This document shows, in pieces, positions 10,043-28,195 of a stretch of 64,000 nucleotides of DNA; the first letter of the stretch is position 1; every line of letters begins with the position of its first letter. The notes beneath the pieces were generated by a model. That model searched no databases. It saw only the letters and a list, made by a program, of their open reading frames with translations, and was not told the DNA's origin. The stretch spans positions 33,361-97,360 of the forward strand of contig JAFGSG010000063.1 in NCBI GenBank assembly GCA_016934735.1. Direction: 5' to 3'. The DNA comes from Spirochaetota bacterium. Lineage in GTDB: Bacteria > Spirochaetota > UBA4802 > JAFGDQ01. The position numbers and the translations under genes are program-made.

Positions 10043-10131
10043 CTTACTCAGTATATATTGCTATATATAATAGTTTATGCAAATGCCGGCAGAACACAAT
10101 TTAGTCAATCTTTGACACCCGGCCTGGTTGG

Positions 10132-10163
10132 TATTCCTTTTCACAGAAGCCGGAAAAGGAATA
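10132..10163 (+). promoter_or_regulatory. Perfect 10-bp inverted repeat (tattcctttt ... aaaaggaata) with a 12-nt spacer, about 50 bp upstream of the REC-PAS-HK-REC gene. Candidate operator or leader hairpin.
   Basis: Read directly: tattcctttt cacagaagccgg aaaaggaata. A TTGACA hexamer lies about 20 bp upstream. Confidence 0.3.
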
Positions 10164-10213
10164 TATCTTAGCGGATATATTTTACTTTAATGATTATTTC
10201 GAGGAATTAGAAA

Positions 10214-13537: not shown

Positions 13538-16500
13538 TAGAATATTTCCTCCAATTGCTCTTCTTCCCTGATCTTCTTGAGCTTCTCATCGATCATAGAA
13601 ATTTTTATTTCATTCATAGCGCGTTTGTATTCAAACGAAATTACTTTGATAAACTTAGGAAGATAATCATACCAGTTCTTGAGTATATCTTTCGCGTTGC
13701 TGCTGTCCGTGTATTTAATATGTTTCTGAAGCAATTCCAGTATAAAATCCTGATCTTCATAATCCCTTACCTGTGACAATTCAACCATACCCTTGTTGCA
13801 GAAATAATCAAAATTGCCGTCCCTGTCCAATACATATGCAATCCCACCGCTCATGCCTGCTGCGAAGTTGCGGCCCACTCTGCCAAGCACTATTATGCGT
13901 CCGCCGGTCATGTATTCTGCGCAATGATCGCCGGTACCCTCAACAACCGCTGTTGCGCCGCTGTTTCGCACGCAGAAGCGTTCGCCCGCTATGCCGCGGA
14001 TAAAGGCTTCTCCCCCAGTAGCGCCGTATAGTACGGTGTTGCCGACTATTATGTTCTCCTCAGCTTTAAAGACTGAATCCCGCGAAGGCGTAACTATAAG
14101 CCTGCCGCCGGAAAGCCCCTTGCCGAGATAATCGTTGGAATCGCCTTCAAGGCGGAATGTGATTCCCTTTGCAAGAAAAGCGCCGAAGCTCTGCCCGGCA
14201 CTTCCGCGGAACACGCATTCAATGCTGTTGTCCGGAAGTCCGGCGTCACCGTATTTCCGGGAGATCTCATATGAAAGCATGGCGCCTGTAGCGCGGTCCG
14301 TATTGCTTACCTGCATTTCAATGTTTATCCGGCTTCTGTTTTCATCGCTCATTGCCGGCTTTGACTTTTCAATTAGCACTTTATCGAGAACATTTTCAAT
14401 CTTGTGTATCTGACATTCAATGCAGTAACCAGTATTCCTTCCGGCTTCCGGGGATCTGTAAAGTATCCCGGAAAGATCGACTTTCCCTGCTTTCCAGTGA
14501 TCAATATTTCTTGATATTAAGAGATCGGTTCTGCCGATGAGCTCATCAAATCTCCGTACTCCTATCATGGCCATAATCTCGCGTACTTCCCGCGTTAAAA
14601 ATGTAAAATAATTGATAAGATGCTCCGGCCTGCCTTTAAATCTTTTTCTTAGCTCAGGGTCCTGAGTGGCTATACCGACAGGGCATGTATTTATATGGCA
14701 TTTTCTCATCATCACGCATCCGAGGGAAATGAGCGTTCCTGTTCCGAAACCGAATTCCTCTGCACCCAGAAGCGCTGCAATGACAATGTCCCTGCCTGTT
14801 TTTAACTGACCGTCCGTCTGTAGGCGCACTCGTCCCCTGAGATTATTCCGGACTAGGGTCTGATGCGTCTCTGACAGGCCGAGCTCCCATGGCAGTCCCG
14901 CATGCTTTATTGAGCTTAAGGGGCTTGCGCCTGTGCCTCCGTCGTATCCGCTTATTAGAATATTGTCAGCATGCGCCTTGGCAACCCCGGCTGCGATAGT
15001 GCCTACTCCGGCTTCCGAAACGAGCTTAACGCTTATCCGCGCATTCGGATTGGCGTTCTTAAGATCGAATATCAGCTCCGCAAGATCCTCTATCGAATAA
15101 ATGTCATGATGAGGAGGAGGCGAAATTAGAGTAACACCCTGTGTGGAATAGCGCGTCTTTGCTATTATTCTGTCTATCTTGTGTCCTGGAAGCTGGCCGC
15201 CCTCGCCCGGCTTCGCTCCCTGAGCGATCTTAATCTGGATCTCATCCGCATTTGCAAGGTAATTGCTGGTCACTCCGAATCTGCCCGAAGCTACCTGCTT
15301 TATCGCGCTTCTGGCAAATGAGCAATCCTGACGCATAAGGAATCTACCCGGATCCTCTCCGCCTTCCCCGGAATTGCTTCTTCCGCAGATAGCATTCATG
15401 GCAACACCGATAGTTTCGTGCGCCTCCCTGCTTATCGACCCGTAAGACATTGCGCCTGTTGTCAGGCGTTTCAGAATACCGGGCAACGGTTCAACTTCCT
15501 CGACAGGAATCGGATTGTTCTTAAAATCAAGCAGACCTCTGATGACATGAGGCCTACGGTTGCTTTCATCCACAAGCCCGGAAAACTCTTTATACCTAGC
15601 GTAATCCGACGTGCGCACTGCCCACTGCAGAAGGCGTATTGTATCCGGGGTCCACGCATGCCTCTCGCCGCTCTTTCTGTACTGATACACACCCTGTGAT
15701 TCAAGAGAGGATATTTTTTGATAAGCTGATTCATGTTTCATCAGAGATTCTTTTGCAATTTCCTTTATTCCTATACCACCAATCCTTGAATCTGTTCCAG
15801 AAAAATATTTATCTATAACTTCTTTTCCAAGTCCCACTGCTTCGAATATCTGCGCACCCCGGTAGCTCCTAAGAGTGGAGGTACCCATTTTAGACAGCAC
15901 CTTCAGGAGACCCTTGTTTACAGCCTTGATATAATTATCAACCGCATGCTCACTGTCAATATCAGAAGATAATTTTCCACGTTTATATAAATCCTCTACT
16001 ACAGCGATCGCGCCATAAGGATTCACAGCGTCTGCGCCGTAACCGAAAAGAAGGGCAAAATGCATCACTTCCCTGGGTTCCGCCGACTCTATTACTAGCC
16101 CGGCCATTGTTCTCTTCCTGGATCTTATAAGATGATGATGCACACCGGCGCATGCAAGAAGAGACGGAACGGGCGCTTTATCGCAGCCGGTTTCCCTATC
16201 AGATATTATTATGATGGTATTTCCGCTATCAATACTTTCCTCTGCTTCAGCACACATCCTCTCGATAGCAGCTTCAAGACCGGATACGCCGTCACTGACA
16301 TTGAATGTTGCATCAATTACCGCTGGTCTGAAATTGGAATTGTTTATGTTTTTCAGCTTCTGAATATCCGGCTGAGAAAAAACCGGACTTGTAAATTTAA
16401 TTACCCTGCAAAGCTCCGGATCCCCGGATAGAATGTTTGTATATGAACCTATGAAACTGGTTAATGTCATGACAAGTTCTTCGCGTATTGAGTCAATGGG

Positions 16501-18072
16501 AGGATTTGTAACCTGCGCGAACATCTGCTTAAAATAATTGAACAAGGGCTGGGGCTTATCGGAAAAAACTGCAAGCGGAGTATCTGTTCCCATTGACCCT
16601 GTCGGTTCCTGGGCAGTCTGAGACATATGCAGAATAATGGTCTCGATATCTTCCCTCGTATACGCATTAACAATTTGCAATTCGAGCAGCTTAGTGCCGG
16701 AAATCTCAGCCGGAGGCTCATCTTTAGACATAATTTCCGAAAGAATGATTCTGTTCTCCTCAACCCATTTTTTATAGGGCTGCTGATGTGAAATTATGTC
16801 CTTGATCTCTTTATCGGGTATTATCCTTCCCTCCTCTGTATCGACGAGAAGCAGTTTGCCTGGCATAAGGCGTCCTTTGTAAATGATATCTTCCGGCGCA
16901 AATGTCTGCACCCCGACTTCCGAGCCCATTACGATCAGGTCATCTTTTACGATATAATATCTTGACGGCCTGAGACCGTTGCGGTCAAGAGTACCGCCTA
17001 CATACCTTCCGTCGCTGAATACAATAGAAGCCGGCCCGTCCCACGGCTCCATGAACGACGCGTGATATTCATAAAAATATTTTAGATCGTCAGGAATGGG
17101 GTTTTTATCATTCCAAGATTCCGGGATAAGCATCATTATAGCATGTGGAAGCGACCGGCCGGTCGCAGCAAGCATTTCAAGAGCATTATCAAGCGAAGCT
17201 GAATCGCTTTTACCAGGCTCAATTACAGGAAGAATTTTTTTTATACCGCTGCCAAATGGATCAGATTCAAAAAATGATTCCCTCGCCTGCATCCAGAACC
17301 TATTTCCTTTTATAGTATTTATTTCGCCGTTATGTGCAAGAAGCCTGAAAGGCTGAGCAAGGTCCCATGACGGGAATGTGTTCGTGCTGAATCTCGAATG
17401 AACAAGTGCGATCGAACTCGAAATCCTGTCAGATCTTAGATCCCGATAATATCTTTTCAGCTGTGAAGGCATCAGCATGCCTTTATACACAATAGTCTTT
17501 GAAGACAGGGAAGGGATATGGAACAGAGCCTTTTGTTTTAAATCAGAATGCCTGATTTTATTTTCAATTGACTTACGTATTATATATAATTTTCTCTCAA
17601 AAACATCCTGCTGAAGAGACCTCCCCGCAACGAACACCTGTTTGATAACGGGTTCAGAGCGTTTTGCAATTTCTCCAATAACGGAATTATCGACTTCTAT
17701 GTCTCTCCATAGTATTATTTTCTGACCTTCTTCTTCAGCTGCCTTATTGAATTCAGCGATACATTCCTCAGCCTCCCCGGAATCCCGAGGCAGGAATACA
17801 AGGCCTGTGCCGTACGATCCTGATCCGGGAATATTCTTTATTTCCTGTTTGTAAAATTCATGAGGGATCTGTAAAAGAATACCGGCGCCGTCGCCTGTCT
17901 TATTGTCAGCACCTTCCGCGCCCCTGTGCTCCATCCTCTCAAGCACTTCAAGCCCGCGCCTGATAATATTATTCGATTTTTCTCCTTTTATATGCGCTAC
18001 AAATCCGATTCCGCAGGAATCGTGCTCGTAGTCATTACTGTAAAGTCCTCTTGTAGTATTTCCCGGCATCAT
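13537..18072 (-). CDS. gltB: Glutamate synthase large subunit (Ntn amidotransferase, FMN/Fe-S and GXGXG domains).
   Basis: N-terminus ...[15 protein letters not shown] with the Ntn Cys. 1511 aa. Canonical large-subunit motifs throughout. Confidence 0.9.
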
Positions 18073-18236: not shown

Positions 18237-18270
18237 AAAATGCCTGCTGTTATAATGCAGCCGGCATTTT
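18237..18270 (-). terminator. Rho-independent terminator downstream of the amidotransferase-GXGXG gene. It separates the upstream operon from gltBD. Coordinates +/- 2 nt.
   Basis: aaaatgcc-tgctg-ttataa-tgcagcc-ggcatttt hairpin (8+4 bp) with T-tracts on both sides. Confidence 0.55.
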
Positions 18271-18305: not shown

Positions 18306-20951
18306 CTACTCCCCTTCCCCGTATTCTTCATTCATTTCAAATTCATTGCTGGATAACACCGATGTTTTTATTGCCGATATTGTCCGGTAAACATCCCGGG
18401 GGTTCATTTTTTTCCCGTGTACATTCAATATATGATCATCTATTGATATTCCGAAAAGCCTTTCATTCTCCTTTAAATAGGGTAAAATCAATTCCCAGTC
18501 ACGGTTGGTAAAAGGCGATATTATTCCGCCGTTCAGTTGTTCATCGACAATTTTTTTAAACGGGTCGCGAACAAAAATCGCCCCGCCGGATGCGAGAGAA
18601 AACAGGTTCGAGCCCGGATAAGGGACATCCTGCGGTATTACGTTTCCGTCTTTATCAAACGCAAGCCCGTTAAGTATCACAAACCCGCCGCCATTGTACG
18701 GGTCTCCCGCCATAAATGATTCCGCGAGAAAATCGAGCGCGGTGCCGTTTATGACAACTCTGGGCTTCCCGACTGCATTAATAAGCGGACGTCCGGCAGC
18801 ATTGCCGAGAACATACACTTCACCGCCCTTTGCTCCGTACATAAATGTCTGTCCGACATCGCCGTAAATAACAAGTTTGCCCGACATCATAATCTGGCCA
18901 AGCTGGTCCTGTGCGTGTCCATGAACATGTACTTCAAGCCCGTCGATCCCTGATGCCAGATAGTCACCGCTGGAGCCGTACGAATCAATGCGCACACCGT
19001 TTGAATCTGATCCCAGGCCGCAGCCGAGAAAGCGCTGGCCGCGCTGGCCAAAGCAGATAAATTTCTTCCAGCCCAGGCTGTTTGCTCTTGATATTATCCC
19101 GGCAAATGAATTATCCCCTTCGGGATCGAATCCGTTCGCGTCCGCCACCAGAATTTTTTCGTCTTTTAATGGTGCGCGGAGCTTATTGCGCGAAGCAAAA
19201 TCTATTCTGCTGAAAATTCCTGATGGAATGCCGTTCATAACCGGTACAGATCTGTAAATAGTATCCAGTGCTTCAGATAGTATCTGCAGAACGGAGCGAT
19301 GACTTTTCTGCCCTGTGTCGTAACGCCTGTCAAAAAGCAATGTTAAAAGCTGTATTGCGGATTCTTTGACGGAATCGGATTTAGAAATCTCAATAAGCAT
19401 ATTGATATATGCTGCGATCTGAATATAATCCCATTTTAAAAAAGCATCCTTTGTAATTTCGAACAGCTTTTCAATATTGCCTTCTTTAAGAAGTTCTCCG
19501 GTTTCGGATTGTACGGAACTTTCGACTTTCACCGGGGAACATTCTTTTGTAAAATCGTTCGGCCTTTTATTTTTAGGCACATCTATGACGCGGCCGAACT
19601 TGTCTGTGCAATTGAGGCTCATTTTTCCCGGTGATGTTTCAGAGACAGTAAAAATAAAAGCGCCTCCGTCCGTATAGCTGCCCCCGCGCGCGTTCCAGTA
19701 ATTATCCGCGACGATCCCGAACCTTTTATCTTCTTTAGCCAGGCTTTCAAGGGTTGCGTCAATGGCCTGCTTTTCAGAACAGATAAGGCCGATTTCCACT
19801 TCGCCCTTCTGCAGGGCAAACACCTGAGGCCTTAGCATAGCCGTATCGGTGATGCCGATAAGCTGATACTGGCTGTTTTTCACATCTGTACGCGCGATGA
19901 TAAAAAACCAGGGGCCGTCCGGCGAGCCGTGTATATGAGTGTTCTGTATCTGGCGGTATATCTGCTTTTTCTCATCAGGCAGGTTGTCGAAATCCATTTC
20001 GCTTGTCGGCGCAAAAGCTTCAATAATATATTCAAGAGGATAGCCGTATATCCTGTTCAAAAGATCAAAGACCAGGATGGACACTTCGGTATCGGTTAGG
20101 AATAACGGGAACACATTCCGCTGTTTAAGATATTCGGATATGGAATAATAGTTAGCGAAATCCCCGTTATGGACGAGCGCTTCATCAAGGCCTATGAACG
20201 GGTGCGCGCCTCCCGGATGCCACATACGGCCCTTTGTCGGATAGCGCTGGTGGGCTATCCATATATGAGCGTCGAAATTCTCAAGTTTGTAATACTGCGC
20301 GACCTGTTCCGCGTAACCCACGATCTTGAGTATCATCATATTCCTGCCGTGGGAGAGTATAAAGGCTTTCTTATCCGTTATCGCACTGTACATCGCGTAA
20401 TTCAGCTTATAGGAATTCTGATAAATGAATTCTTCCTCCGTCCTGTCCATGCCGAGCATTTCCAGGCGGCGCTCTTTTCTGAAGGCCGAAAGCACTTCAG
20501 GTTTAACGCGCACAAAATACCTTTTTACCTGCGGAGGCTTAACTTCCAGGCCTTTTATATCCCGGTAATCGTCAATTGTCTCAACATAAGCCTCATGATC
20601 CACCCTGAAAAACGGCTTTATATACCTTGACTCCATTTCTCCGGTAAATGATTCATCAAGAATGGCTACCTGCAGCAAAAAATCTTCATCAAGCGTTTTA
20701 CGGTCAACTCCAAGCTTCCCGGGGCTCAGTCCTACCGCGGCCAGCCCGCCGCCTTTGCCGTTGCCCCTGTTATGCATCTGAATGGAAGGCTCAAAAATAT
20801 GCTTTCCGCTTACGGGGATATTACACGCAAACCCGGTAACCCCGCAGCCACCCTCCCCGGTTTCAAGTTCTTCTCTGCTGACTTTCTCCGCTGAATAGGG
20901 CAGTTCCTTTCGGCTTCTTAATATTTCGCGTGCGAAATTACGATTACTCAT
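18306..20951 (-). CDS. Fusion protein: class-II (Ntn) glutamine amidotransferase domain plus glutamate-synthase GXGXG domain. Equivalent to archaeal-type GltS domains 1+3.
   Basis: N-terminal region GGCGVTGF...HNGDFANYY is GATase-2-like. C-terminal QRGQRFLGCGLGSDSNGVRIDSYGSSGDYLASG...GGEVYVLGNAAGRP carries the GXGXG repeats. RBS gaggt upstream of the start. Confidence 0.75.
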   Translation of the reverse strand: MSNRNFAREILRSRKELPYSAEKVSREELETGEGGCGVTGFACNIPVSGKHIFEPSIQMHNRGNGKGGGLAAVGLSPGKLGVDRKTLDEDFLLQVAILDESFTGEMESRYIKPFFRVDHEAYVETIDDYRDIKGLEVKPPQVKRYFVRVKPEVLSAFRKERRLEMLGMDRTEEEFIYQNSYKLNYAMYSAITDKKAFILSHGRNMMILKIVGYAEQVAQYYKLENFDAHIWIAHQRYPTKGRMWHPGGAHPFIGLDEALVHNGDFANYYSISEYLKQRNVFPLFLTDTEVSILVFDLLNRIYGYPLEYIIEAFAPTSEMDFDNLPDEKKQIYRQIQNTHIHGSPDGPWFFIIARTDVKNSQYQLIGITDTAMLRPQVFALQKGEVEIGLICSEKQAIDATLESLAKEDKRFGIVADNYWNARGGSYTDGGAFIFTVSETSPGKMSLNCTDKFGRVIDVPKNKRPNDFTKECSPVKVESSVQSETGELLKEGNIEKLFEITKDAFLKWDYIQIAAYINMLIEISKSDSVKESAIQLLTLLFDRRYDTGQKSHRSVLQILSEALDTIYRSVPVMNGIPSGIFSRIDFASRNKLRAPLKDEKILVADANGFDPEGDNSFAGIISRANSLGWKKFICFGQRGQRFLGCGLGSDSNGVRIDSYGSSGDYLASGIDGLEVHVHGHAQDQLGQIMMSGKLVIYGDVGQTFMYGAKGGEVYVLGNAAGRPLINAVGKPRVVINGTALDFLAESFMAGDPYNGGGFVILNGLAFDKDGNVIPQDVPYPGSNLFSLASGGAIFVRDPFKKIVDEQLNGGIISPFTNRDWELILPYLKENERLFGISIDDHILNVHGKKMNPRDVYRTISAIKTSVLSSNEFEMNEEYGEGE

Positions 20952-21002
20952 GAAAAAACCTCGCTATATAACAGGTATGCGATTCACAAATGTTGTTTAT
21001 AT

Positions 21003-22538
21003 TCACAGTTCCAATATCCCGTTAAGTTTCCGGTTATGTATATGATCAATATGCGCAATAAGGTCCGTGCGCCCCGTGAGCTCAGTCACGCTTTTCATGT
21101 TAAGCCGCTTCAGTATGCGCATGAGCTGCCGCCGCCATGAAATATACATGTTTATGATGCGCTGAGTGCCCCATTCCAGGTTCATCAGATTAGTAAGTTC
21201 TTCGTCAGTCGTCGCTATGCCGCGCGCGCATCCCCTGCCGGATTCGCAGTGATGACAGCGTATGCACTCAAGCGCCACAAGATCGGCAGTGCCTATACAT
21301 ATTCCATCGGCTCCCATTGCTATTGCCTTTGCCATATCATATGCAGACCGTATGCCTCCGCTCGCAATGACTGTTATCTTATTGCGTATTCCTTCGGATG
21401 TAAGGAATTTGTGCACTTTGGGAATCGCGTATTCAATCGGCATCGCGATGTTCTTCTTGGCAATTTCCGGAGCCGCGCCTGTTCCCCCGTAGCTTCCGTC
21501 AAGATGGATGATATGCGCCCCTGCGTAATACGCGCCGACCGCCACCATGTCGACATCTGTCGGAGTGGACACTTTGATCGATACAAGCGTCTTCGGATTT
21601 ACTTCTTTTATCCAGTCCACGTGTTTCTTGTGATCTTCAACTGAATACACGCTGTGAAACGGAAAAGGAGAAAAAAGAGCAGTCCCTGGCACTGCCTGCC
21701 GCATGGCTGCTACACGCGGAGTCACCTTGTCACCCAGCAGGTGTCCGCCGAGGCCCGGTTTTGCTCCCTGTGCGTATTTGAATTCCACAATACGGACTCG
21801 TTTTATAGTTTCTTCCTTAACACCAAAAAGGCCGGTAGCTACCTGCGTGATTATATGATCGCTATATGGTATAAGTTCTTCGGGGAATCCTCCCTCGCCC
21901 GTGCAGCAGAACGTGCCCAGGTTTGTCGCAGCCCTAACACGAGAGAGCATTGTTACTATGCTGACAGAACCGAAAGACATCCCGCCCAGATATACGGGGA
22001 TCGGGATTGTTACTTCAGGCCTTGAGTCCTGTGAGTGGTTCAGATCTATAGCAGTTGAAATCCCGTCCAGGGATTCATTTTTAATATCATCCTCTTCCTT
22101 TTTGCTTTTTTCAGGGAAAAGTATTCCAATTTTATCGAATCCGCCGCCCGAATTGCCTGTTTTATAATTCAGATTAGCCGGCAATTCCCCTGAGGCAGCC
22201 ATATTCCATGTGGACGCAAGCAGTTCCGCGGGCCAGCGGCGGTCGCCAAGTACTTCAAACGAAGGATTTAATCTGAGTGATATTGCCTTTTCCGGGCATT
22301 TATTAACGCAATAATAATCATTTTTTGAGCAATCATATCCGATGCACAGATGATCGGATAAAGCTTTCGGTCTTTTCATTCCGGATTTAAATACAGCGTA
22401 AGGACAGACTTCAATGCATTTCCCGCAATTAGTGCAGGCCTTGTTTATAGTAATGAGATATTTTCCAAGAGCGTTGCGGAACCGGCTTGGCATTTCCTTT
22501 ACTTCAGGGAAAATAAAAGTTACTTTATTACTTGCCAT
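21003..22538 (-). CDS. Archaeal-type glutamate synthase domain-2 protein: N-terminal 2x[4Fe-4S] ferredoxin plus FMN-binding GltS TIM barrel.
   Basis: CTNCGKCIEVCP and CVNKCP cluster motifs. FMN-domain motifs AQGAKPGLGGHLLGDKVT, HLDGSYGGTGAAP and VIASGGIRSAYDMAKAIAMGADG. Confidence 0.8.
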   Translation of the reverse strand: MASNKVTFIFPEVKEMPSRFRNALGKYLITINKACTNCGKCIEVCPYAVFKSGMKRPKALSDHLCIGYDCSKNDYYCVNKCPEKAISLRLNPSFEVLGDRRWPAELLASTWNMAASGELPANLNYKTGNSGGGFDKIGILFPEKSKKEEDDIKNESLDGISTAIDLNHSQDSRPEVTIPIPVYLGGMSFGSVSIVTMLSRVRAATNLGTFCCTGEGGFPEELIPYSDHIITQVATGLFGVKEETIKRVRIVEFKYAQGAKPGLGGHLLGDKVTPRVAAMRQAVPGTALFSPFPFHSVYSVEDHKKHVDWIKEVNPKTLVSIKVSTPTDVDMVAVGAYYAGAHIIHLDGSYGGTGAAPEIAKKNIAMPIEYAIPKVHKFLTSEGIRNKITVIASGGIRSAYDMAKAIAMGADGICIGTADLVALECIRCHHCESGRGCARGIATTDEELTNLMNLEWGTQRIINMYISWRRQLMRILKRLNMKSVTELTGRTDLIAHIDHIHNRKLNGILEL

Positions 22539-23925
22539 TTATTAACCCCTTTATCCCCATTCCGGAAAATATTTCTTTTTCGAGTTCTTCAAAGAACATT
22601 GCCCTGCCCATTTCCCCGCGCATGCGTCTTATTTCCCGTATGCCCATTGCTCCCATCACCTCAAGGAGCTGGTTATGCCAGCCCGAAATAAGATTTCTTA
22701 TACGTGAAGCGCCCCAGGCATAGTCAATATTCTCAAGATCAACCGGACACGAAATCCCCTCTGTGCAGCGCCTGCATACCCTGCATTCCATCGCAACAAG
22801 CAGGGGGATGTCCACGGCGACTGCGTCAGCTCCGCAAATAACGAGTTTTGCCACATGCTCGGCCATTGCTACCCCACCTGATCCAATTAGCGTGACTTCA
22901 TCCCGAAGGCCGGCTTCAATTAAATGGGAATGTATCTGCCTGATCCTGTCCTTTATAAATAAAGGATCTTCGGCCTTTCCCATCCCGTTCTCGTTTGCTG
23001 TTAAATGTATAACTTCAGCTCCTTCCTTTGCGAGGGCGGCCGCCCGGACAGATGCGTTGCGGCTCAATCTGAATCTTATAAATATTACCAGGGCGGGATT
23101 GATTTTTTTTAAATGCTCCTGAATTGCCATTACGTTCCCGCTGTCCGGCAATTCGATGATTTTTAAACGCCGTATCATCTCTTTGCTCAATTTTAATACA
23201 TCATCATCGGCAAACAGTATTATATTTGGAACATATTCATCCATATCCGTCATAAAATCCGCCTGATGGATGACTGCAAAGGTACGTGTATTTCTTGCGG
23301 CTTCAAGAAAGGCAAGGTTGATTCCTTTCCCGCCGGGAGACCATGGTAATACATCAAATATAACCGGCAGCGGTATTTCAACAAGCGGCGGAGGAGACGA
23401 TATAAGTTTTCCGCCGGAATCAAACTCCAGAGACATTAGCTTCCTTCCAAGGTCAACAGTCGTACTGATATATTCGCGCCCATGAATGCCATCCCTTGTG
23501 GGACGTACAATCTCAGACATGTCCGTCCACATTGCGTCGAATCCCGGGCCCGAAAACGGGCCATGGTAGCCGCCCCCTGAAACCGGGACTCGTCCGTTCT
23601 CAGCCTGGTTCCAGATATTTTCAATGATCTCGGGAGTCCAGTAATTATCGCCAAGGGCTTTATACAAAGGATTGATTGATTTCTGTATAAGACGGTTAGG
23701 GCAGTTCTGGACGCATCTGAAGCAATCCATACAAGCCGTATCCAGGGAATCAAGCATTTGGCGCGAATCGAGACTTCTTTTTTCGTATACTTTATAAACG
23801 CAGTCCTTCTTAACGCAGCGCGCGCATTTTAAACAGCCTTCCTCCCATGCTATGATCCCGGCTTTGGTGATTGGCTTAAATCTGGCAGGAGTTGGTGATG
23901 TCAGAATATGATATTTGTGCGCCAC
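22528..23925 (-). CDS. Second, more divergent ferredoxin plus GltS-like FMN-domain paralog. GTG start; overlaps the downstream gene by 11 nt.
   Basis: CLKCARCVKKDC and CMDCFRCVQNCP cluster motifs. C-terminal LIGSGGVAMAEHVAKLVICGADAVAV resembles the GltS FMN-domain motif. Strong RBS aggagg. Confidence 0.65.
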   Translation of the reverse strand: MAHKYHILTSPTPARFKPITKAGIIAWEEGCLKCARCVKKDCVYKVYEKRSLDSRQMLDSLDTACMDCFRCVQNCPNRLIQKSINPLYKALGDNYWTPEIIENIWNQAENGRVPVSGGGYHGPFSGPGFDAMWTDMSEIVRPTRDGIHGREYISTTVDLGRKLMSLEFDSGGKLISSPPPLVEIPLPVIFDVLPWSPGGKGINLAFLEAARNTRTFAVIHQADFMTDMDEYVPNIILFADDDVLKLSKEMIRRLKIIELPDSGNVMAIQEHLKKINPALVIFIRFRLSRNASVRAAALAKEGAEVIHLTANENGMGKAEDPLFIKDRIRQIHSHLIEAGLRDEVTLIGSGGVAMAEHVAKLVICGADAVAVDIPLLVAMECRVCRRCTEGISCPVDLENIDYAWGASRIRNLISGWHNQLLEVMGAMGIREIRRMRGEMGRAMFFEELEKEIFSGMGIKGLINGK

Positions 23926-23935
23926 TTATATCCTC

Positions 23936-24859
23936 CTAATCCACGTCAGGCCTTTGAGCAAGACCTGCTTCTCTTACGATCTCCGGCACTGCATCTTCCC
24001 ATTCAATGGCCATGATATGAACACCATGCACCCCTTCAATTCCTTGTAATTCTTTGATAAGTTCAATGGTAATTTTAATTCCTTCTTTGCGCTGGTCGCC
24101 GGCAGGAACCGATTTCATTCGTTCTATGATCTCCGCAGGCACATCTATGCCTGCTACGTTTTTGCTCATATATTCAGCCATCCGGGCGGATTTGAGCGGG
24201 GTAATACCGCCCAGAATGAATACCTTCTTATGAAGACCGCGCTCCCTGATCTCGACCATCCATTCTTTAAATCGCCCGATATTATAAATGCACTGGGTCT
24301 GTATGAACTCCGCCCCGGCAGCGACTTTCTTGGCCAGACGCGCTGCCCTGTAATTTAATGGATCAGCAAATGGATTCTCAGCGGCACCGATAAAAAGATC
24401 AGGCGGCAGCGTAAGTTTTTCACCTCCGAGTATTACTCCCTGATCTCTCATTTTACGAACCGTCTGGATAAGTTGGATCGAATCTAGGTCGAATACTCCC
24501 TTTGCCTGCGGCTGGTTCCCGAAAGACTGATGATCGCCTGTCAGACAGAGAATATTGCGCAGCCCGAGAGCAGAGGCGCCCAGAATATCCGATTGAAGCG
24601 CAATGCGGTTGCGATCGCGGGTTACCATCTGAAGCACCGGCTCCAGTCCTTCATTTTTCAGCAGCACGCATGAAGCCATGCTGGAAAGCCGGACGACACC
24701 CGTCTGGTTATCTGTCACATTGACGCTGTCCACGAATCCTTTCAGCGTCTTTCCTTTGTCCTGAACGGCCTTCGGGTCTGCTCCTTTCGGCGGGCCGCAC
24801 TCGGATGTCACGGCAAAATGGCCCTTTTCCAGTATTTTTTTTAACCGGCTGCTTGTCAT
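23936..24859 (-). CDS. metF: Methylenetetrahydrofolate reductase. The start is placed at an internal Met that has an RBS and an ATGA overlap with the metV stop. The track ORF extends to 24913.
   Basis: MTHFR TIM-barrel motifs FAVTSECGPPKG, VNVTDNQTG and CLTGDHQS. gagagagg RBS before the Met at 24859. Confidence 0.8.
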   Translation of the reverse strand: MTSSRLKKILEKGHFAVTSECGPPKGADPKAVQDKGKTLKGFVDSVNVTDNQTGVVRLSSMASCVLLKNEGLEPVLQMVTRDRNRIALQSDILGASALGLRNILCLTGDHQSFGNQPQAKGVFDLDSIQLIQTVRKMRDQGVILGGEKLTLPPDLFIGAAENPFADPLNYRAARLAKKVAAGAEFIQTQCIYNIGRFKEWMVEIRERGLHKKVFILGGITPLKSARMAEYMSKNVAGIDVPAEIIERMKSVPAGDQRKEGIKITIELIKELQGIEGVHGVHIMAIEWEDAVPEIVREAGLAQRPDVD

Positions 24860-25521
24860 ATGCTTTGATCCTCTCTCATTATTTTCCTGGGGCCCTTGCC
24901 CATCTTTGACCAATCCACAGGTTCATATATCTTTTCGAGCCTGCCGAGCTCACCCTTTTCTTCCAGCCGCGTAATAATGAGATTCCACGCACATGGCAGT
25001 TCCGGATCTACTTCGCAGTTGCCGTCTTTTGATCCGCCGCAGGGTCCGTTAAAAAGACTCTTTGAGCACCGGGTGACCGGGCAGATTGCCGCGAAATCCC
25101 CCAGCTTGCAATCGCCGCATGCCCTGCAGTTTTCGATCCATAATCCGGGTTCTTTTGTCTGTCCGATAAAAGTTGTATTCAGGGCAGGAAAAATTTTTGC
25201 AACAGGAAAAATTTCGGCAAGAGCCTGAACGCCGGCGCCGCATCCAAGCGAGAGTACTGCTTCATAATTTTCTATGATGCCGGTAAGCTGGTCGATGAAT
25301 TCATAAACGCATTGCCGGTCAATTGTCATTTCCTTTATCTCGATTTCCCGCTTTCTGTTTTTTGCATCAATACGAAGAGCCGAAGCGAGCAGCCCTACTT
25401 CTTTCTCGCCCCCGGATGCGCACTCCGCTACGCATGTACCGCAGCCTACAATTAGGATTTTTTTGAATGGAGCGATCATTCCCCTGATCTCTTCCATGGG
25501 TTTTCTTACGGCAGTAATCAT
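24856..25521 (-). CDS. metV: MetV-type Cys-rich MTHFR-associated subunit (MTHFR_C domain).
   Basis: Multiple Cys motifs: CGTCVAEC, CRACGDCKLGDFAAICPVTRC and CGGSKDGNCEVDPELPC. Lies immediately upstream of metF, as in acetogen metVF operons. Confidence 0.65.
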   Translation of the reverse strand: MITAVRKPMEEIRGMIAPFKKILIVGCGTCVAECASGGEKEVGLLASALRIDAKNRKREIEIKEMTIDRQCVYEFIDQLTGIIENYEAVLSLGCGAGVQALAEIFPVAKIFPALNTTFIGQTKEPGLWIENCRACGDCKLGDFAAICPVTRCSKSLFNGPCGGSKDGNCEVDPELPCAWNLIITRLEEKGELGRLEKIYEPVDWSKMGKGPRKIMREDQSI

Positions 25522-25642
25522 TGCTTTACTCCTCGCAGTGTCTTTTAATAAATCATCTTAACTGATTTTCCCATTCCTAAAAGCATAAACGAATCGATAA
25601 AACAGTTAATTATTATAATATTATAAATAACAGTCAAAGCTT

Positions 25643-26023
25643 TCAGCCAAGTAATTCACGTGTTAGTTTATCAACTGTATAATTATTCCCGGCTTTGAGA
25701 CGGATAAGCTCAAGCATTCCGCGTTCAAGTCCGATTTCTTCGATCAAGTTCTGCGTATATAACAGTCTTTTTCGTGCGCGGATATTACCTTCTCTATAGC
25801 GGCACGCCCCTTCCGGGCATGTGACAACATAAACCTTATCCGCGCCGGATTCAATCGCGCGCATCAGGTGCAGCGGTTCTATCCGTCCGCTGCATGGAAT
25901 CGGAAAAAATCTGATCTGAGGTCCGAATTCTTTTTCAATGGAACGCCGGTTAACATCCTGATTTTTATCTATCTGCTGGCAAAAGAAAATTGCGTATTTT
26001 TTTCCTGCATTCGTTTTCTTCAT
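25643..26023 (-). CDS. mvhD: MvhD/FlpD-like [2Fe-2S] hydrogenase-delta-type electron-transfer protein.
   Basis: PCSGRIEP...GADKVYVVTCPEGACRYREGN signature of the FlpD/MvhD family. 126 aa. Confidence 0.7.
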   Translation of the reverse strand: MKKTNAGKKYAIFFCQQIDKNQDVNRRSIEKEFGPQIRFFPIPCSGRIEPLHLMRAIESGADKVYVVTCPEGACRYREGNIRARKRLLYTQNLIEEIGLERGMLELIRLKAGNNYTVDKLTRELLG

Positions 26024-26839
26024 AAATATACCGTTATAATTATTTCATTTATGTTTAAAAAAAGACGTCCTCAAAGACGCCCGTAGTATATAATAAAATT
26101 ATGCCAATTTTACGGATTCCCTCTGGATCAGCCTCCGGTGATAACGTACTGACCTCCATTCGGCGCCAGTGGAAAATTTTATTTCAAAGCGCTATCACGA
26201 ATCAATTGAAGAACAATCCCGATCCAAACTTCGGGCTATTTCCCATTGAAATAAATTAATATAACACTCTTATTGTATTTATTAAAGTTTAATATTAACA
26301 CAATAAAATAGACTGGTAAACAAAAATATTAAAATACAGAGAGTCTGTTTTCCTTTGTATTATATTATCCAGATCTTTTCAAAATAAACAGATTTACAAC
26401 CGAAAAAACTTTAAAATATTACAGCCATGTTAATTTTTTATTCCGCTATAATACCACCGGTTTTACCGGTTGTTGTTTATTATCTGTTTCAAAATGATTA
26501 ATACGAGCAGGTTATTAACTGGATAAATGTCAAATTATCAGGATTTAAAAAAATAAGGCTGAGTGGCTGCGTAAATGGAATTATTAATGGATATTTATAT
26601 AATAAAATATCCTAAATATAAAAAAATATCTTCTGGAAAAGTATTAAGTTTTTCTGCTCCGTTGGTATCATAATTCTCTTTTCTCTGAATTTTGTTCTTT
26701 TAATATGTGCGTTTATTATTTACAGATGGTAATATCGATAAAATTTTTTGGTAAGTCGAATAAAAAATAAACCCCCGCTAAAAGAGGAGGTTTATTTTTT
26801 ATTTATAATAAGATAGTTTCTCTTATTTTAAAAATTAAT

Positions 26840-28195
26840 TTATACAATCCCCCCAGCAAGCATTGCCTTCGCAACTTTAACAAATCCGGCAATGTTGGCG
26901 CCCATTACATAGTCGCCTTTTTTACCGTATGTCTCAGAAGCGCTCAGGCATGCCTTGTGGATATTCTTCATGATTTCCTTCAGCCTGGAATCAACTTCTT
27001 CTCTGCTCCATGAAAGCCTCATGCTGTTCTGCGACATCTCAAGTCCTGATGTGGCCACTCCGCCTGCATTAGCAGCTTTTCCCGGTCCATAAAGTATGTT
27101 GTTATCCTGATAAATCTTGATTGCGTCAGGAGAAGATGGCATATTTGCACCCTCTGAAACACAAATACATCCGGTCTTAGCCATATTCTCTGCATTCTTG
27201 CCGCTGATTTCGTTCTGGGTAGCGGATGGGAATGCAACATCGACCTTTATTCCCTGTTCTCTTAAAACGTCCCAAACACTCAGGCCGTTGAAATATTTTA
27301 CTTTATATTTATCTGCATATTCTTTTATTCTTCCGCGTCTTATATTCTTCAAATCCATTATAAAATTCAGCTTATCGCCGTCGATTCCTTTCTCATCAAT
27401 TATTGTACCGTCAGAATCGCTGAGTGATATGACCTTGCCGCCAAGCTGGCTGACCTTTTCAACCGTATATTGAGCAACATTGCCTGAGCCGCTTACGGCA
27501 CAAACCTTGCCGTTAAGGTCCTTCCCTCTCGTCGCCAGCATTTCAGCTGCAAAATAAGTAGCGCCGTATCCGGTAGCTTCCGGTCTGATAAGACTTCCGC
27601 CGTATTCAAGCGCTTTGCCGGTCAATACGCCAGTATGCTCATTAACTATTTTTTTATAATATCCGAACATGAATCCGATTTCGCGTCCGCCTACTCCGAT
27701 GTCGCCCGCAGGCACGTCAATATCGGGACCGATATATTTAAATAATTCGCGCATAAATGACTGAGTAAACCTCATGACTTCCATGTCCGATTTGCCCTTT
27801 GGATCGAAATCCGAGCCTCCCTTTGCTCCGCCCATCGGAAGCGTTGTAAGCGAATTTTTAAAGATCTGTTCGAATCCCAGGAATTTGATAATGCCCAGGT
27901 TTACCGACGGATGGAATCTGAGACCTCCCTTATATGGTCCGATTGCATTTGTAAACTGCACTCTAAAACCTCTGTTAACCTGCACTTCTCCCTTATCGTC
28001 AACCCACGGCACGCGGAACATAATTACCCTGTCCGGCTCAACGATTCTTTCATAGATCTTTGCCTTAACAAACTCCGGATGCTTTGCAATAGTCGGTTCA
28101 AGCGTATACATTACTTCTTCAACAGCCTGATGAAATTCCTTTTGCTCCGGATCTCGTTTCTTTACTTTGTCGATTATTTCATTGATTAATGACAT
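26840..28195 (-). CDS. gdhA: NADP-specific glutamate dehydrogenase.
   Basis: GGAKGGSDFDPKGKSD and Rossmann motif GSGNVAQY. 451 aa. Confidence 0.9.
   Translation of the reverse strand: MSLINEIIDKVKKRDPEQKEFHQAVEEVMYTLEPTIAKHPEFVKAKIYERIVEPDRVIMFRVPWVDDKGEVQVNRGFRVQFTNAIGPYKGGLRFHPSVNLGIIKFLGFEQIFKNSLTTLPMGGAKGGSDFDPKGKSDMEVMRFTQSFMRELFKYIGPDIDVPAGDIGVGGREIGFMFGYYKKIVNEHTGVLTGKALEYGGSLIRPEATGYGATYFAAEMLATRGKDLNGKVCAVSGSGNVAQYTVEKVSQLGGKVISLSDSDGTIIDEKGIDGDKLNFIMDLKNIRRGRIKEYADKYKVKYFNGLSVWDVLREQGIKVDVAFPSATQNEISGKNAENMAKTGCICVSEGANMPSSPDAIKIYQDNNILYGPGKAANAGGVATSGLEMSQNSMRLSWSREEVDSRLKEIMKNIHKACLSASETYGKKGDYVMGANIAGFVKVAKAMLAGGIV

What the first reader, a model, noticed from the sequence alone, without database searches (positions are those of the whole stretch)
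18306..26023. MvhD-MetV-MetF co-operonic with archaeal-type split glutamate-synthase modules: possible non-canonical electron-transfer partner set for MTHFR
One minus-strand gene string with overlapping or near-overlapping junctions (ATGA overlap metV/metF; the metF stop overlaps the next gene's RBS; an 11-nt overlap at 22528-22538) runs mvhD -> metV -> metF -> Fd+GltS-FMN paralog -> Fd+GltS-FMN -> GATase+GXGXG. A strong terminator at 18237-18270 then separates it from gltBD.

From established knowledge, in acetogens MetFV pairs with HdrABC+MvhD or RnfC-like partners, and no HdrA is encoded here. The downstream genes instead carry flavin/Fe-S domains of the glutamate-synthase family.

Two readings are possible. 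One is a coincidental juxtaposition of a complete archaeal-type GltS (domains 1+3 fused, domain 2 duplicated) with MetFV. The other is that the GltS-like FMN/Fe-S paralogs act as electron input for methylene-THF reduction.
Basis: partly seen in the sequence, partly recalled or inferred. Interest (0 to 1): 0.65.

Follow-up and report, generated by a model that had tools for sequence, protein, structure and literature searches.

The report
Glutamate synthase operon wired to MTHFR
A six-gene operon found in hundreds of anaerobic bacterial species joins a split glutamate synthase to a methylene-tetrahydrofolate reductase through small iron-sulfur proteins; I found no description of this pairing, and it may be a new way of feeding electrons into nitrogen assimilation.

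Summary
The linkage is not coincidental. The order mvhD-metV-metF-p465-p511-p881 recurs, tightly coupled, in at least 43 of the 80 best species-level loci, drawn from at least 579 genomes that carry a p465 relative. These loci span many phyla and have unrelated flanks.

p511 and p881 keep all catalytic motifs of a glutamine-dependent glutamate synthase (GOGAT). p465 is a full-length paralog of p511 that has lost the 2-oxoglutarate/FMN loops but kept its Fe-S sites. p465-p511-p881 is the invariant trio, and in this family MvhD always sits upstream of it.

MetVF is one of several alternative partner modules. The others are HdrCB with HdrA, HdrL or a NuoF-like protein, and a GlcD-type FAD dehydrogenase fused to p465.

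Flanking genes (glnA, PII, amt, glnD, carAB, gdhA, gltBD) and ANTAR/GnfR-like leader attenuators place the operon in nitrogen assimilation, not acetogenesis.

Best reading: one Fe-S-wired enzyme in which MetVF and the GOGAT site are connected through MvhD and p465. The direction of electron flow is unresolved. Either methyl-THF feeds GOGAT (slightly preferred) or both are sinks of a common donor.

I found no description of this cassette in the searchable literature. It is a new variant of known kinds, with interest about 0.7.

The parts
26056..26082 (-). Leader hairpin GGGCGUCU-UUGA-GGACGUCU followed by U7, about 40 nt upstream of the mvhD ATG. Candidate transcription attenuator.
   Evidence: Terminator scan. 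Fold of -9.9 kcal/mol, z = -3.3. The same hairpin and U-run sit at about -40 in L003, L004, L009-L011 and others. No Rfam family matches.
25643..26023 (-). mvhD (FlpD family, 126 aa), a presumed [2Fe-2S] electron-transfer subunit.
   Evidence: PF02662, 77.6 bits. Four conserved Cys. It lies upstream of p465 in every locus whose sequence reaches that far, including loci without metVF.
24856..25521 (-). metV (221 aa), the Cys-rich Fe-S partner of MetF.
   Evidence: PF12225, 121.7 bits. Cys motifs are invariant in 59 sequences. ATGA overlap with metF.
23936..24859 (-). metF (307 aa), methylene-tetrahydrofolate reductase flavoprotein.
   Evidence: PF02219, full-length match, 135.7 bits; NF006396 MTHFR half, 238.8 bits. 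The equivalents of E. coli E28 and Q183 are invariant or nearly so, and the TGD motif (D120 equivalent) is conserved.
22528..23925 (-). p465: an N-terminal 2x[4Fe-4S] domain plus a degenerate GltS FMN-barrel that keeps the CxxCxxCx5C cluster motif. A catalytically dead paralog of p511 and a proposed electron-entry adaptor.
   Evidence: hhalign against the p511 family: probability 100%, with a 43-residue deletion over the QGAKPG...SPFPFH loop; GEGG and GGTGA are lost. Pfam matches only the C-terminal half. 64-71% identical across phyla. Fusions to p511 and to a GlcD-type dehydrogenase exist.
21003..22538 (-). p511: an N-terminal 2x[4Fe-4S] domain plus the complete GltS FMN/2-oxoglutarate (synthase) domain. 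The catalytic subunit.
   Evidence: PF01645, 311 bits. Aligned to Azospirillum GltS residues 856-1172 with Q934, K937 and R957 equivalents, the FMN-phosphate motifs and the Cys cluster conserved. These residues are invariant in 71 sequences.
18306..20951 (-). p881: a class-II (Ntn) glutamine amidotransferase, a variable linker of about 150 aa, and a GXGXG beta-helix domain (GltS domains 1 and 3 fused).
   Evidence: PF01493, 49.5 bits; weak GATase_6, GlmS and PurF hits. Invariant GGCGV(T)G with Cys36 after a 35-aa propeptide, plus HNRGNG, QRYPT, HNGDFANY and TDTEV.
18237..18270 (-). Terminator-like hairpin with a U-tract that ends the operon before the gltB promoter region.
   Evidence: Sequence. 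Fold of -17.5 kcal/mol. Promoter-like hexamers at 18213-18186 and 18161-18132.

Best explanation
The six genes form one operon for one iron-sulfur-wired enzyme whose catalytic heart is a glutamine-dependent glutamate synthase.
- p881 hydrolyses glutamine.
- p511 makes 2-iminoglutarate and reduces it at its FMN.
- p465 is a dead duplicate of p511 that has kept only its three Fe-S sites. Together with MvhD it serves as the electron-entry adaptor of p511.

In other lineages the same adaptor carries obvious electron-donor modules: a GlcD-type FAD dehydrogenase fused to p465, or HdrCB with HdrA, HdrL or a NuoF-like protein. Here it carries MetV-MetF.

I therefore read MetF as the flavoprotein at the far end of the wire. 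Most likely methyl-THF is oxidised at MetF, and the electrons run MetV -> MvhD -> p465 -> p511-FMN to drive glutamate synthesis. This would be a methyl-THF-dependent GOGAT. From textbook potentials (about -200 mV for the donor, -130 mV or higher for the acceptor) it would be exergonic.

Shown:
- The conserved operon and its tightly spaced or overlapping junctions.
- Intact catalytic motifs in p511, p881 and MetF.
- Loss of catalytic motifs in p465.
- The interchangeable partner modules and the fusions.
- The nitrogen-assimilation neighbourhood and leaders.

Inferred: physical assembly of all six proteins, the path of the electrons, and above all their direction.
For: Conservation of the unit:
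- Six-gene order conserved with unrelated flanks.
- At least 579 species genomes carry p465.
- Junctions are short: metV/metF median -4 nt, metF/p465 15 nt, p465/p511 3 nt.

Catalytic state of the parts:
- p511 and p881 motifs are intact.
- p465 has lost the QGAKPG loop, GEGG and GGTGA but keeps its Fe-S motifs.

Modularity:
- p465-p511 fusion proteins exist (P0127, P0132).
- GlcD-like-Fer4-p465 fusions exist and sit next to p511, glnA and p881.
- Cassettes without metVF carry hdrC-hdrB plus an HdrA-like or NuoF-like gene.
- The arrangement types map onto clades of the core tree.

Nitrogen context:
- glnA, PII, amt, glnD or carAB occur in the flanks of 32 of 78 loci; gdhA and gltBD flank the cassette in the window.
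- ANTAR dual-hexaloop leaders resembling the Geobacter GnfR motif were found in 27 of 74 leaders, against 1.3 expected (PMC8934654, PMC2995071).
- GAF-ANTAR genes lie nearby.
- Nitrogen control of a housekeeping MTHFR would be odd, which argues that MetVF serves the GOGAT.

Biochemistry: MetVF enzymes have no NAD(P)H site, and the reverse reaction (methyl-THF oxidation) has been measured for the A. woodii RnfC2-MetVF enzyme (PMC8760232).
Against: - In every characterised MTHFR type, MetVF is the terminal reductase and the variable partners are its inputs (PMC8760232).
- Minimal cassettes (L042, L055, L082) work with mvhD-p465-p511-p881 alone, so the core can obtain electrons without MetVF.
- The Chloroflexota variant has both metF and hdrCB-hdrL, which would be two donors under this model.
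- Some host lineages, such as Syntrophus-like MAGs, may lack an independent source of methyl-THF. This could not be tested.
- No complex prediction was possible, and the AF2 model of p465 was poor (pLDDT 58).
- Whether the host genomes have a second metF is unknown.
Confidence: 0.38

Rival explanations
1. Shared-sink (hub) model. This is the same wired complex, but both flavin sites are terminal reductases. An external low-potential donor enters at the MvhD/p465/ferredoxin-domain hub. The donor would be reduced ferredoxin or an Hdr-type NAD(P)H module encoded elsewhere. From the hub the electrons are distributed to p511 (2-iminoglutarate to glutamate) and, through MetV, to MetF (methylene-THF to methyl-THF). 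On this view the cassette is a further MTHFR type beyond the four known ones, whose input module is shared with a GOGAT.
For: - It matches all known MetVF biochemistry: MetVF is a terminal reductase, reduced ferredoxin works in vitro, and MetVF-HdrCBA-MvhD is a known complex (PMC8760232).
- It explains the minimal cassettes and the Chloroflexota variant (metF plus hdrCB-hdrL in cis) with a single logic.
- Ferredoxin-type domains are present on p465 and p511.
Against: - There is no obvious benefit in wiring two independent anabolic reductases together.
- It does not explain why an MTHFR should sit behind nitrogen-responsive ANTAR attenuators and among glnA, amt and PII genes.
- The other modules at this position (GlcD-like, Hdr, NuoF-like) are donors.
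Confidence: 0.3
2. Flavin-based electron bifurcation. The strongly exergonic GOGAT reaction, the MTHFR reaction, or both form the high-potential branch of an Hdr-type bifurcating complex. NAD(P)H or methyl-THF would be the donor, with ferredoxin or NAD+ as the low-potential acceptor. The Hdr part is in cis in some lineages and in trans or absent in the window.
For: - MvhD is otherwise known only from Hdr-type complexes.
- hdrC-hdrB plus HdrA-like, HdrL or NuoF-like genes directly follow p881 in L029, L039, L064, L072, L078 and L081.
- The Moorella MetVF-HdrCBA-MvhD enzyme still lacks its second acceptor (PMC8760232).
Against: - No HdrA is present in the 64-kb window or within 10 kb on either side in most canonical cassettes.
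- Both substrates encoded in the cassette are high-potential acceptors.
- The anabolic flux is small.
Confidence: 0.15
3. Co-transcription only. A ferredoxin-dependent split GOGAT (with MvhD and p465) and an ordinary MetVF MTHFR are separate enzymes that merely share an operon.
For: - Operons can combine unrelated anabolic genes.
- MetVF can be absent, or placed after p881 (L023, L024, L026, L028), without loss of the core.
Against: - metVF is inserted between mvhD and p465, not at an operon end. This holds in at least 43 loci across phyla.
- The junctions overlap or are about 15 nt.
- All six proteins are 60-80% identical between Spirochaetota, Nitrospirota and Deltaproteobacteria, so the cassette moves as a unit.
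- Pairwise distances of all six families correlate, r = 0.77-0.94. No outside control gene was available for this comparison.
Confidence: 0.1
4. The GltS-like trio is not a GOGAT but performs other amine chemistry related to C1 metabolism. An example would be an N-methylglutamate-synthase-like enzyme, which is also built from GltS domains 1, 2 and 3. MetF would act on the C1 product.
For: GltS-domain trios are known to have been recruited for methylamine metabolism (my own knowledge; not tested here). MetF is a C1 enzyme.
Against: - The Ntn Cys and glutamine-site motifs, and the QGAKPG...R 2-oxoglutarate motifs, are invariant.
- The neighbours are glnA, PII, amt and glnD. No methylamine genes (gmaS, mgd) appeared among the 25 commonest flank families, of which the 22 I identified by inspection or Pfam included none.
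- glnA is embedded in the GlcD variant.
Confidence: 0.04

Closest known systems
Type IV MTHFR, MetVF-HdrCBA-MvhD of Moorella thermoacetica (Mock et al. 2014, as summarised in PMC8760232)
   Same: MetV, MetF and MvhD are encoded together. MetF has no NAD(P)H site. MvhD is the presumed Fe-S link between MetV and a larger flavin/Fe-S partner. Minority variants of the present cassette also carry hdrC, hdrB and an HdrA-like or HdrL gene in cis.
   Different: The window has no HdrABC. The partner next to MvhD is a split glutamate synthase with a dead paralog. The context is nitrogen assimilation, not the Wood-Ljungdahl gene cluster.
Type II MetVF MTHFR (Clostridium ljungdahlii, C. formicoaceticum, Thermoanaerobacter kivui; PMC8760232, PMC8515935)
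   Same: A translationally coupled MetV-MetF pair with conserved Cys motifs and MTHFR catalytic residues.
   Different: The type II enzyme is a free-standing (MetVF)2 with no MvhD and no GltS-like partners.
Split ('archaeal-type') glutamate synthase with GltS domains on separate polypeptides and an N-terminal ferredoxin domain on the FMN subunit (my own knowledge)
   Same: The FMN domain with an N-terminal 2x[4Fe-4S] domain (p511). The GATase and GXGXG domains are encoded apart from it. There is no GltD and no central domain.
   Different: Domains 1 and 3 are fused in one 881-aa protein. There is an extra catalytically dead copy of domain 2 (p465). MvhD is obligatory. Partner modules (MetVF, Hdr, GlcD-like) are optional.
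Bacterial NADPH-GOGAT GltBD (encoded next door at 12122-18072)
   Same: The same chemistry is predicted. The same catalytic motifs are present in the GATase, FMN and GXGXG domains. A flavoprotein plus an Fe-S chain feeds the FMN site.
   Different: In GltBD the donor module is GltD (FAD, NADPH). Here that position is taken by MvhD and p465 plus MetVF. The four domains are not in one chain.
F420-dependent or FrhB-linked glutamate synthases of methanogens and ANME archaea (mentioned in PMC9012536)
   Same: The principle that split GltS cores are combined with different lineage-specific electron-input modules.
   Different: Different input module (FrhB and F420 there). Those systems have no MvhD, no p465 and no MetVF.

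Membership tests
Glutamine-dependent glutamate synthase (GltS/GOGAT), split type | Class-II (Ntn) amidotransferase domain with an N-terminal catalytic Cys and glutamine-site motifs. | tested here: met
   p881 has invariant GGCGV(T)G (Cys36 after a 35-aa propeptide), HNRGNG, QRYPT, HNGDFANY and TDTEV in 59 sequences. Weak GlmS and PurF matches. The Pfam GATase_6 score (22.1) is below its cut-off (27).
Glutamine-dependent glutamate synthase (GltS/GOGAT), split type | Synthase domain with the FMN and 2-oxoglutarate motifs (GEGG, QGAKPG..GG, Arg, GGTGA, GG..GAD..GT) and a Cys cluster. | tested here: met
   Met for p511: PF01645, 311 bits; alignment to 1EA0 residues 856-1172; motifs invariant. Not met for p465, which has the loop deleted and the motifs replaced.
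Glutamine-dependent glutamate synthase (GltS/GOGAT), split type | GXGXG beta-helix domain. | tested here: met
   PF01493, 49.5 bits against a cut-off of 32.5, at p881 residues 639-811.
Glutamine-dependent glutamate synthase (GltS/GOGAT), split type | Enzymatic formation of two glutamate from glutamine, 2-oxoglutarate and 2 electrons. | not testable with these tools
   Only inferred, from the motifs and from the glnA, PII, amt and glnD neighbourhood.
MetVF-type methylene-THF reductase | MetF TIM-barrel flavoprotein with the catalytic Glu, Asp and Gln. | tested here: met
   PF02219, profile positions 1-287 of 287, 135.7 bits. The E28 equivalent is invariant (63 of 63), the Q183 equivalent is found in 61 of 63, and the TGD motif is conserved.
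MetVF-type methylene-THF reductase | An adjacent Cys-rich MetV (PF12225) partner. | tested here: met
   121.7 bits. ATGA overlap in the window; median -4 nt in 58 loci.
Type III or type IV MTHFR complexes | An RnfC2 or HdrCBA input module encoded with metVF. | tested here: not met
   No Hdr or Rnf domain in the 39 window ORFs scanned. HdrCB with HdrL or an HdrA-like protein occurs in cis only in variant loci L029, L072, L078 and L081.
Hdr/Mvh-type flavin-based electron-bifurcating complexes | MvhD ([2Fe-2S], FlpD family) together with a bifurcating HdrA flavoprotein. | tested here: inconclusive
   MvhD is present. HdrA is absent from the window.
Bacterial NADPH-GOGAT (GltBD) | A single alpha chain with a central domain, plus a GltD beta subunit. 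| tested here: not met
   The cassette has no GltD. p465 is closer to the FMN domain (E = 1.3e-4) than to the central domain (E = 0.012). True gltBD lies next door.
ANTAR-regulated leaders (for the operon's 5' region) | Two hairpins with hexaloops (A at position 1, G at position 4), the second overlapping the 5' arm of an intrinsic terminator. | tested here: inconclusive
   Clearly present in many deltaproteobacterial-type loci, such as L004, L007, L010 and L011 (definition from PMC8934654). The window's own leader has the terminator but no recognisable hexaloop pair.

The most novel reading that the evidence does not exclude
The p465/p511/p881 core is a high-potential electron sink (GOGAT) that anaerobes plug into donors which cannot reduce NAD+ unaided. 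Methyl-THF would enter through MetVF-MvhD, and a lactate- or hydroxyacid-type substrate through the fused GlcD-like module. In the Hdr-bearing variants the core would be plugged into a bifurcating module. The window's operon would then encode a methyl-THF:(2-oxoglutarate + glutamine) oxidoreductase. That enzyme activity has not been described, and it would directly couple one-carbon catabolism to nitrogen assimilation.
Probability: 0.3. Interest if true: 0.85.

Novelty: new variant of a known kind. Interest (0 to 1): 0.7.

Why it matters
The physiological electron partners of MetVF-type MTHFRs are an open problem in anaerobe bioenergetics: there is the "energetic dilemma" of type II enzymes and the unknown second acceptor of the Moorella type IV enzyme (PMC8760232). 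The electron donor of split, GltD-less glutamate synthases in bacteria is also poorly defined.

This cassette hard-links the two enzymes in hundreds of species of sulfate reducers, syntrophs, Nitrospirota, Chloroflexota and Spirochaetota. Its natural variants (MetVF, Hdr/NuoF-like, GlcD-like) amount to a ready-made comparative experiment.

It offers a concrete, purifiable candidate complex for three tests:
- Whether MetVF can act as an input dehydrogenase.
- Whether GOGAT can be a bifurcation partner.
- How MvhD works outside Hdr complexes.

It also corrects database annotation. p465 is currently labelled "hypothetical" or "ferredoxin", and p511 "alpha-hydroxy-acid oxidizing protein".

Tried and rejected
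- Riboswitch in the 800-nt leader: Rfam at gathering and at E <= 10 found nothing credible in the window or in seven related loci.
- Sigma-54 promoters upstream of mvhD: only 3 of 74 leaders have a TGGCA-N6-7-TGC match. Dropped.
- p465 as the counterpart of the GltB "central domain": rejected. hhalign gives E = 0.012 and probability 3.6% against the central domain, versus E = 1.3e-4 against the FMN domain. p465 is also a full-length paralog of p511.
- AF2 model of p465 from a 20-sequence alignment: mean pLDDT 58, with the N-terminal 150 residues unmodelled. Foldseek then gave only generic FMN TIM barrels, with TM-scores of 0.3-0.4. This adds nothing beyond the sequence analysis.
- Mirror-tree correlation of the six families (r = 0.77-0.94): consistent with co-inheritance but uninformative without an outside control gene.
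- MvhD identity as a marker of MetVF presence: not clean. A MetVF-containing clade also has divergent MvhD.
- Solved structures: none exists for MetV or for any such complex.
- Literature: nine full-text searches combining MetV, MetF, MvhD, FlpD, GltB, GOGAT, HdrA and bifurcation terms found no description of the linkage. One search was badly designed and wasted.

Full report
**1. What is in the window**

The window is part of a 119.7-kb contig of a Spirochaetota MAG; its proteins are NCBI MBN2402231-39. On the minus strand lie gdhA (26840-28195), then six genes, then gltB (13537-18072) and gltD (12122-13537). All three flanking genes score above the NCBIfam equivalog cut-offs.

The six genes are:
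- mvhD (FlpD family).
- metV (PF12225).
- metF (PF02219, full length; the real start is the ATG at 24859).
- A 465-aa protein (p465) with a ferredoxin dicluster domain and only the C-terminal half of the GltS synthase domain.
- A 511-aa protein (p511) with a ferredoxin domain and the complete synthase domain.
- An 881-aa protein (p881) with an Ntn-amidotransferase part and a GXGXG part.

A bulged hairpin with a U-tract follows p881, and promoter-like hexamers precede gltB. No Hdr or Rnf protein is encoded among the 39 larger ORFs I scanned.

**2. The linkage is conserved, so it is not a coincidence**

p465 has thousands of detectable homologs. The best 120 are 64-98% identical and about 460 aa long. 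Where sources name them, they come from Deltaproteobacteria, Nitrospirota, Syntrophorhabdaceae and Dissulfurispiraceae.

Three look-ups of such homologs showed the identical six-gene order with unrelated flanks.

The best 80 were fetched with 10 kb on each side. They come from Leptospirales, Thermodesulfovibrionia/Nitrospirota, Syntrophorhabdaceae, Syntrophus, Desulfobacteraceae, Desulfatiglandales, Desulfomonilaceae, Desulfarculaceae, Dehalococcoidia/Chloroflexota, Sedimentisphaerales, Latescibacterota, Abyssobacteria and Desantisbacteria.

Mapping the window proteins onto them gave these results:
- 43 loci have all six complete genes in the window's order.
- About a dozen more have the same order but are cut by contig ends.
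- Median spacers are -4 nt (metV/metF, 58 of 58 at 30 nt or less), 15 nt (metF/p465), 3 nt (p465/p511), 63 nt (p511/p881) and 73 nt (mvhD/metV).

All six proteins of the window are 65-82% identical to those of Nitrospirota and deltaproteobacterial loci. In a tree of the concatenated core, the two spirochaete loci nest inside that clade. The cassette has therefore moved between phyla as a unit.

**3. What each part can and cannot do**

*p511.* It aligns to Azospirillum GltS residues 856-1172. It keeps GEGG, the QGAKPG..GG loop with the Lys and Gln, the following Arg, GGTGA, the FMN-phosphate motifs and the Cys cluster. These are invariant in 71 sequences.

*p881.* It keeps an invariant GGCGV(T)G. 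Its Cys36 would become the N-terminal nucleophile after removal of a 35-residue propeptide, as happens in bacterial GltB (my own knowledge). It also keeps the HNRGNG, QRYPT, HNGDFANY and TDTEV motifs typical of class-II amidotransferases, and a GXGXG domain. Together, p511 and p881 look like a working glutamine-dependent GOGAT.

*p465.* By profile-profile alignment it is a full-length paralog of p511 (probability 100%, 27% identity over 438 columns), with these differences:
- A 43-residue deletion lies exactly over YAQGAKPGLGGH...SPFPFHSVYSVE.
- IHQAD replaces TGEGG.
- ANENGMGKAE replaces GSYGGTGAAP.
- It retains two CxxCxxCxxxC(P)-type motifs in the N-terminal domain and the CxxCxxCx5C motif of the barrel.

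It is not the GltB central domain. Its most conserved feature is a roughly 50-residue segment (VSGxGYxGPFSGPGFDxMWTDMSEIVRPTRDGIHGREYIST) that is nearly invariant across phyla. This segment is unexplained.

MetV and MvhD keep their Cys patterns.

**4. Which genes belong together**

The invariant set is p465-p511-p881. In this family mvhD lies upstream of p465 in every locus whose sequence reaches that far. MetVF is the variable element:
- metVF lies between mvhD and p465 in most loci.
- metVF lies after p881 in four loci (L023, L024, L026, L028).
- metVF is absent in at least eight loci. In these, mvhD directly precedes p465, and the Pfam FlpD assignment was confirmed.

What follows p881 in the metVF-less cassettes is informative:
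- L029 has hdrC-like, hdrB-like and a 1016-aa HdrA-like gene.
- L039 has a polyferredoxin, an hdrB-like gene and a NuoF-like NADH-binding protein.
- L064 has an hdrC-like gene before the contig ends.
- L042, L055 and L082 have nothing related.

In Dehalococcoidales, Chloroflexota and Sedimentisphaerales (L072, L078, L081) the order is mvhD-metF (without metV)-p465-p511-p881-hdrC-hdrB-hdrL. HdrL here is a protein of at least 1434 aa that joins HdrA-like and GltD-like NAD(P)H-binding parts. The same kind of HdrL-MvhD pair was described in Desulfobacterium autotrophicum (PMC2702500).

An all-against-library search showed about 270 clusters (at 50% identity) of p465-like proteins at E <= 1e-30. 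It also revealed fusions:
- p465-p511 in one chain (P0127, P0132).
- A GlcD-type FAD dehydrogenase plus an Fe-S dicluster domain fused to the N-terminus of p465 (P0143, P0151, and about 20 clusters).
- A 2508-aa protein (P0265) carrying a GlcD-like FAD domain, an Fe-S domain, a p465-like part and a full synthase domain in that order, alongside a second giant p465-like protein of 3016 aa (P0268) whose domains were not scanned.

The genomic contexts of the fusions are GlcD-Fer4-p465 / p511 / glnA / p881 (L083, L084). In an Acidobacteriota MAG the order is GlcD-Fer4 / p465 / p511 / p881 with no mvhD (L085).

So p465 physically belongs with p511. It sits between p511 and whatever redox module the lineage uses. 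Those modules are interchangeable: MvhD-MetVF, MvhD with Hdr or NuoF-like proteins, or a GlcD-like dehydrogenase.

**5. Physiological context**

I clustered all flanking ORFs of the 78 non-redundant loci. The commonest neighbours are:
- Glutamine synthetase (19 loci, five of them directly upstream on the same strand).
- PII (14), carA (13), amt (10), glnD (10).
- A class-I amidotransferase (9), carB (8).
- GlmS, NAD synthase and GatB/amidase.

32 of the 78 loci have at least one of glnA, PII, amt, glnD or carAB within 10 kb. No Wood-Ljungdahl or methionine genes were among the 25 commonest families, of which I identified 22.

The window itself has gdhA, gltBD and carB nearby. A contig whose p465 is 80% identical has the same synteny but no gltBD.

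The leaders point the same way. Many deltaproteobacterial-type loci have, in order:
- A sigma-70-like promoter.
- A hairpin GGCAC-AxxGxx-GUGUC.
- A hairpin GAC-A(A/G)(A/G)G(G/A)C-GUC, whose 3' arm is the 5' arm of a GGCGUC...GACGCC-U6 terminator.

This is the ANTAR dual-hexaloop target (PMC8934654). The second hairpin resembles the CAGGCAANGGCGCC element of the GnfR-controlled nifH, glnK and amtB leaders of Geobacter (PMC2995071).

A loose scan found such pairs in 27 of 74 leaders, against 1.3 in shuffles. GAF-ANTAR genes lie beside four cassettes.

The window and its closest relative L003 keep the terminator about 40 nt before the mvhD start, but I could not recognise hexaloops in either.

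**6. How it probably works**

*Firm part.* The operon encodes a split GOGAT whose FMN subunit is fed through an adaptor made of its own dead paralog (p465) and MvhD. A complete MetVF MTHFR is attached to that adaptor.

*Open part.* The direction of electron flow is not settled.

I slightly prefer MetVF as the donor: methyl-THF -> MetF -> MetV -> MvhD -> p465 -> p511-FMN -> 2-iminoglutarate. The reasons are:
- The other modules at this position are dehydrogenases, that is, donors.
- A two-flavin enzyme joined by an Fe-S chain normally has one donor site and one acceptor site.
- The whole operon, metVF included, is embedded in the nitrogen regulon.
- The potentials fit. From textbook values, methylene/methyl-THF is about -200 mV, similar to lactate/pyruvate. 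The couple 2-oxoglutarate + NH4+/glutamate is about -130 mV, and more positive once glutamine hydrolysis is counted.

The nearly equal rival is a hub model in which an external donor feeds both reductases. That donor would be reduced ferredoxin, which type II MetVF enzymes accept in vitro (PMC8760232), or an Hdr module encoded elsewhere. The hub model is closer to known MetVF biochemistry. It also explains the minimal cassettes and the metF-plus-Hdr variants more simply.

A bifurcating role is conceivable for the Hdr-bearing variants. Mere co-transcription is unlikely, given where metVF is inserted.

**7. Comparison with what is known, and novelty**

Four MTHFR types are recognised in acetogens: MetF alone; MetVF; MetVF with RnfC2; and MetVF with HdrCBA and MvhD (PMC8760232). 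None involves glutamate synthase.

Known GOGAT input modules are ferredoxin, GltD and, in archaea, F420-linked FrhB homologs (PMC9012536). None is MvhD or MetVF.

Nine full-text searches found no mention of the cassette. Databases label p465 "hypothetical protein" or "ferredoxin", and p511 "alpha-hydroxy-acid oxidizing protein".

I therefore rate it a new variant of known kinds. It is widespread, modular and directly testable.

**8. Limits**
- No multimer prediction was possible.
- There was no access to the rest of the host genomes.
- The single-chain model of p465 was poor.
- Redox potentials, and some family lore (propeptide processing, archaeal GltS organisation, N-methylglutamate synthase), come from my own knowledge.

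Noticed in passing
window 26056-26082 (minus strand); L003 7876-7902: A terminator-like hairpin (GGGCGUC...GACGUC plus a U-run) sits about 40 nt upstream of the mvhD start. It occurs in the window and in the closest relative, and a U-run at about -40 recurs in loci from other phyla. It is probably an attenuator. No Rfam family matches it, and no ANTAR hexaloops are recognisable in the two spirochaete leaders.
   Followed up: partly
L004, L007, L009, L010, L011, L015, L019, L020, L047, L048, L051, L061, L076 (60-140 nt upstream of mvhD): ANTAR-type dual-hexaloop motif: GGCAC-AxxGxx-GUGUC, then GAC-AxxGxC-GUC overlapping a GGCGUC/GACGCC terminator, downstream of a sigma-70-like promoter. The second hairpin resembles the GnfR element of Geobacter nifH, glnK and amtB leaders. 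GAF-ANTAR protein genes lie near the cassette in L022, L029, L048 and L061.
   Followed up: partly
L072 15633-21386; L078 9231-15010; L081 15598-18190; L029 8219-13066; L039 15554-21217: Variants of the cassette are followed by hdrC-like and hdrB-like genes, and then by an HdrL-type giant protein (HdrA-like plus GltD-like), an HdrA-like protein, or a NuoF-like protein. In the Chloroflexota and Planctomycetota variant, metF is present without metV.
   Followed up: partly
L083 9001-18210; L084 9001-19472; L085 9001-16711; proteins P0143, P0151, P0265, P0268: A GlcD-type FAD-linked dehydrogenase with an Fe-S dicluster domain is fused to, or directly precedes, p465 in Chloroflexota, Anaerolineae and Acidobacteriota. 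There is no MvhD, and glnA lies inside the operon. Giant proteins of 2508 and 3016 aa exist; Pfam scanning of the 2508-aa one shows a GlcD-like FAD domain, an Fe-S domain, a p465-like part and a synthase domain in one chain. The substrate of the GlcD-like module is unknown.
   Followed up: partly
window 22528-23925, p465 residues about 112-156: A roughly 50-residue segment (VSGGGYHGPFSGPGFDAMWTDMSEIVRPTRDGIHGREYISTT) is almost invariant across phyla, although the barrel behind it is degenerate. AF2 gives it low confidence. Its function, as an interface or as a site, is unexplained.
   Followed up: no
window 12122-18072 compared with the contig of P0004: A contig whose p465 is 80% identical has the same synteny: carB, a PPDK_N-domain protein, gdhA, the cassette, then histidine kinases. 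It lacks gltBD. The NADPH-GOGAT genes therefore seem to have been inserted into, or lost from, the position next to the cassette. gltB also follows the cassette in L003, L044 and L067.
   Followed up: no
window 25522-25642: The 119-nt mvhD-metV spacer contains a promoter-like TTGACT-17-AATAAT (10 of 12 matches). An internal promoter for metV-metF-p465-p511-p881 cannot be excluded.
   Followed up: no
window 6642-12127 and 51406-54285: There are several hybrid histidine kinase and response-regulator genes, three of them in a row next to gltD. Some might be nitrogen-related sensors. This was not examined.
   Followed up: no
L008 15924-19164: A second, distant GltS-FMN-like gene (27% identical to p511) lies next to a GltD-like gene, a few kb downstream of the cassette in a Dissulfurispiraceae MAG.
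   Followed up: no
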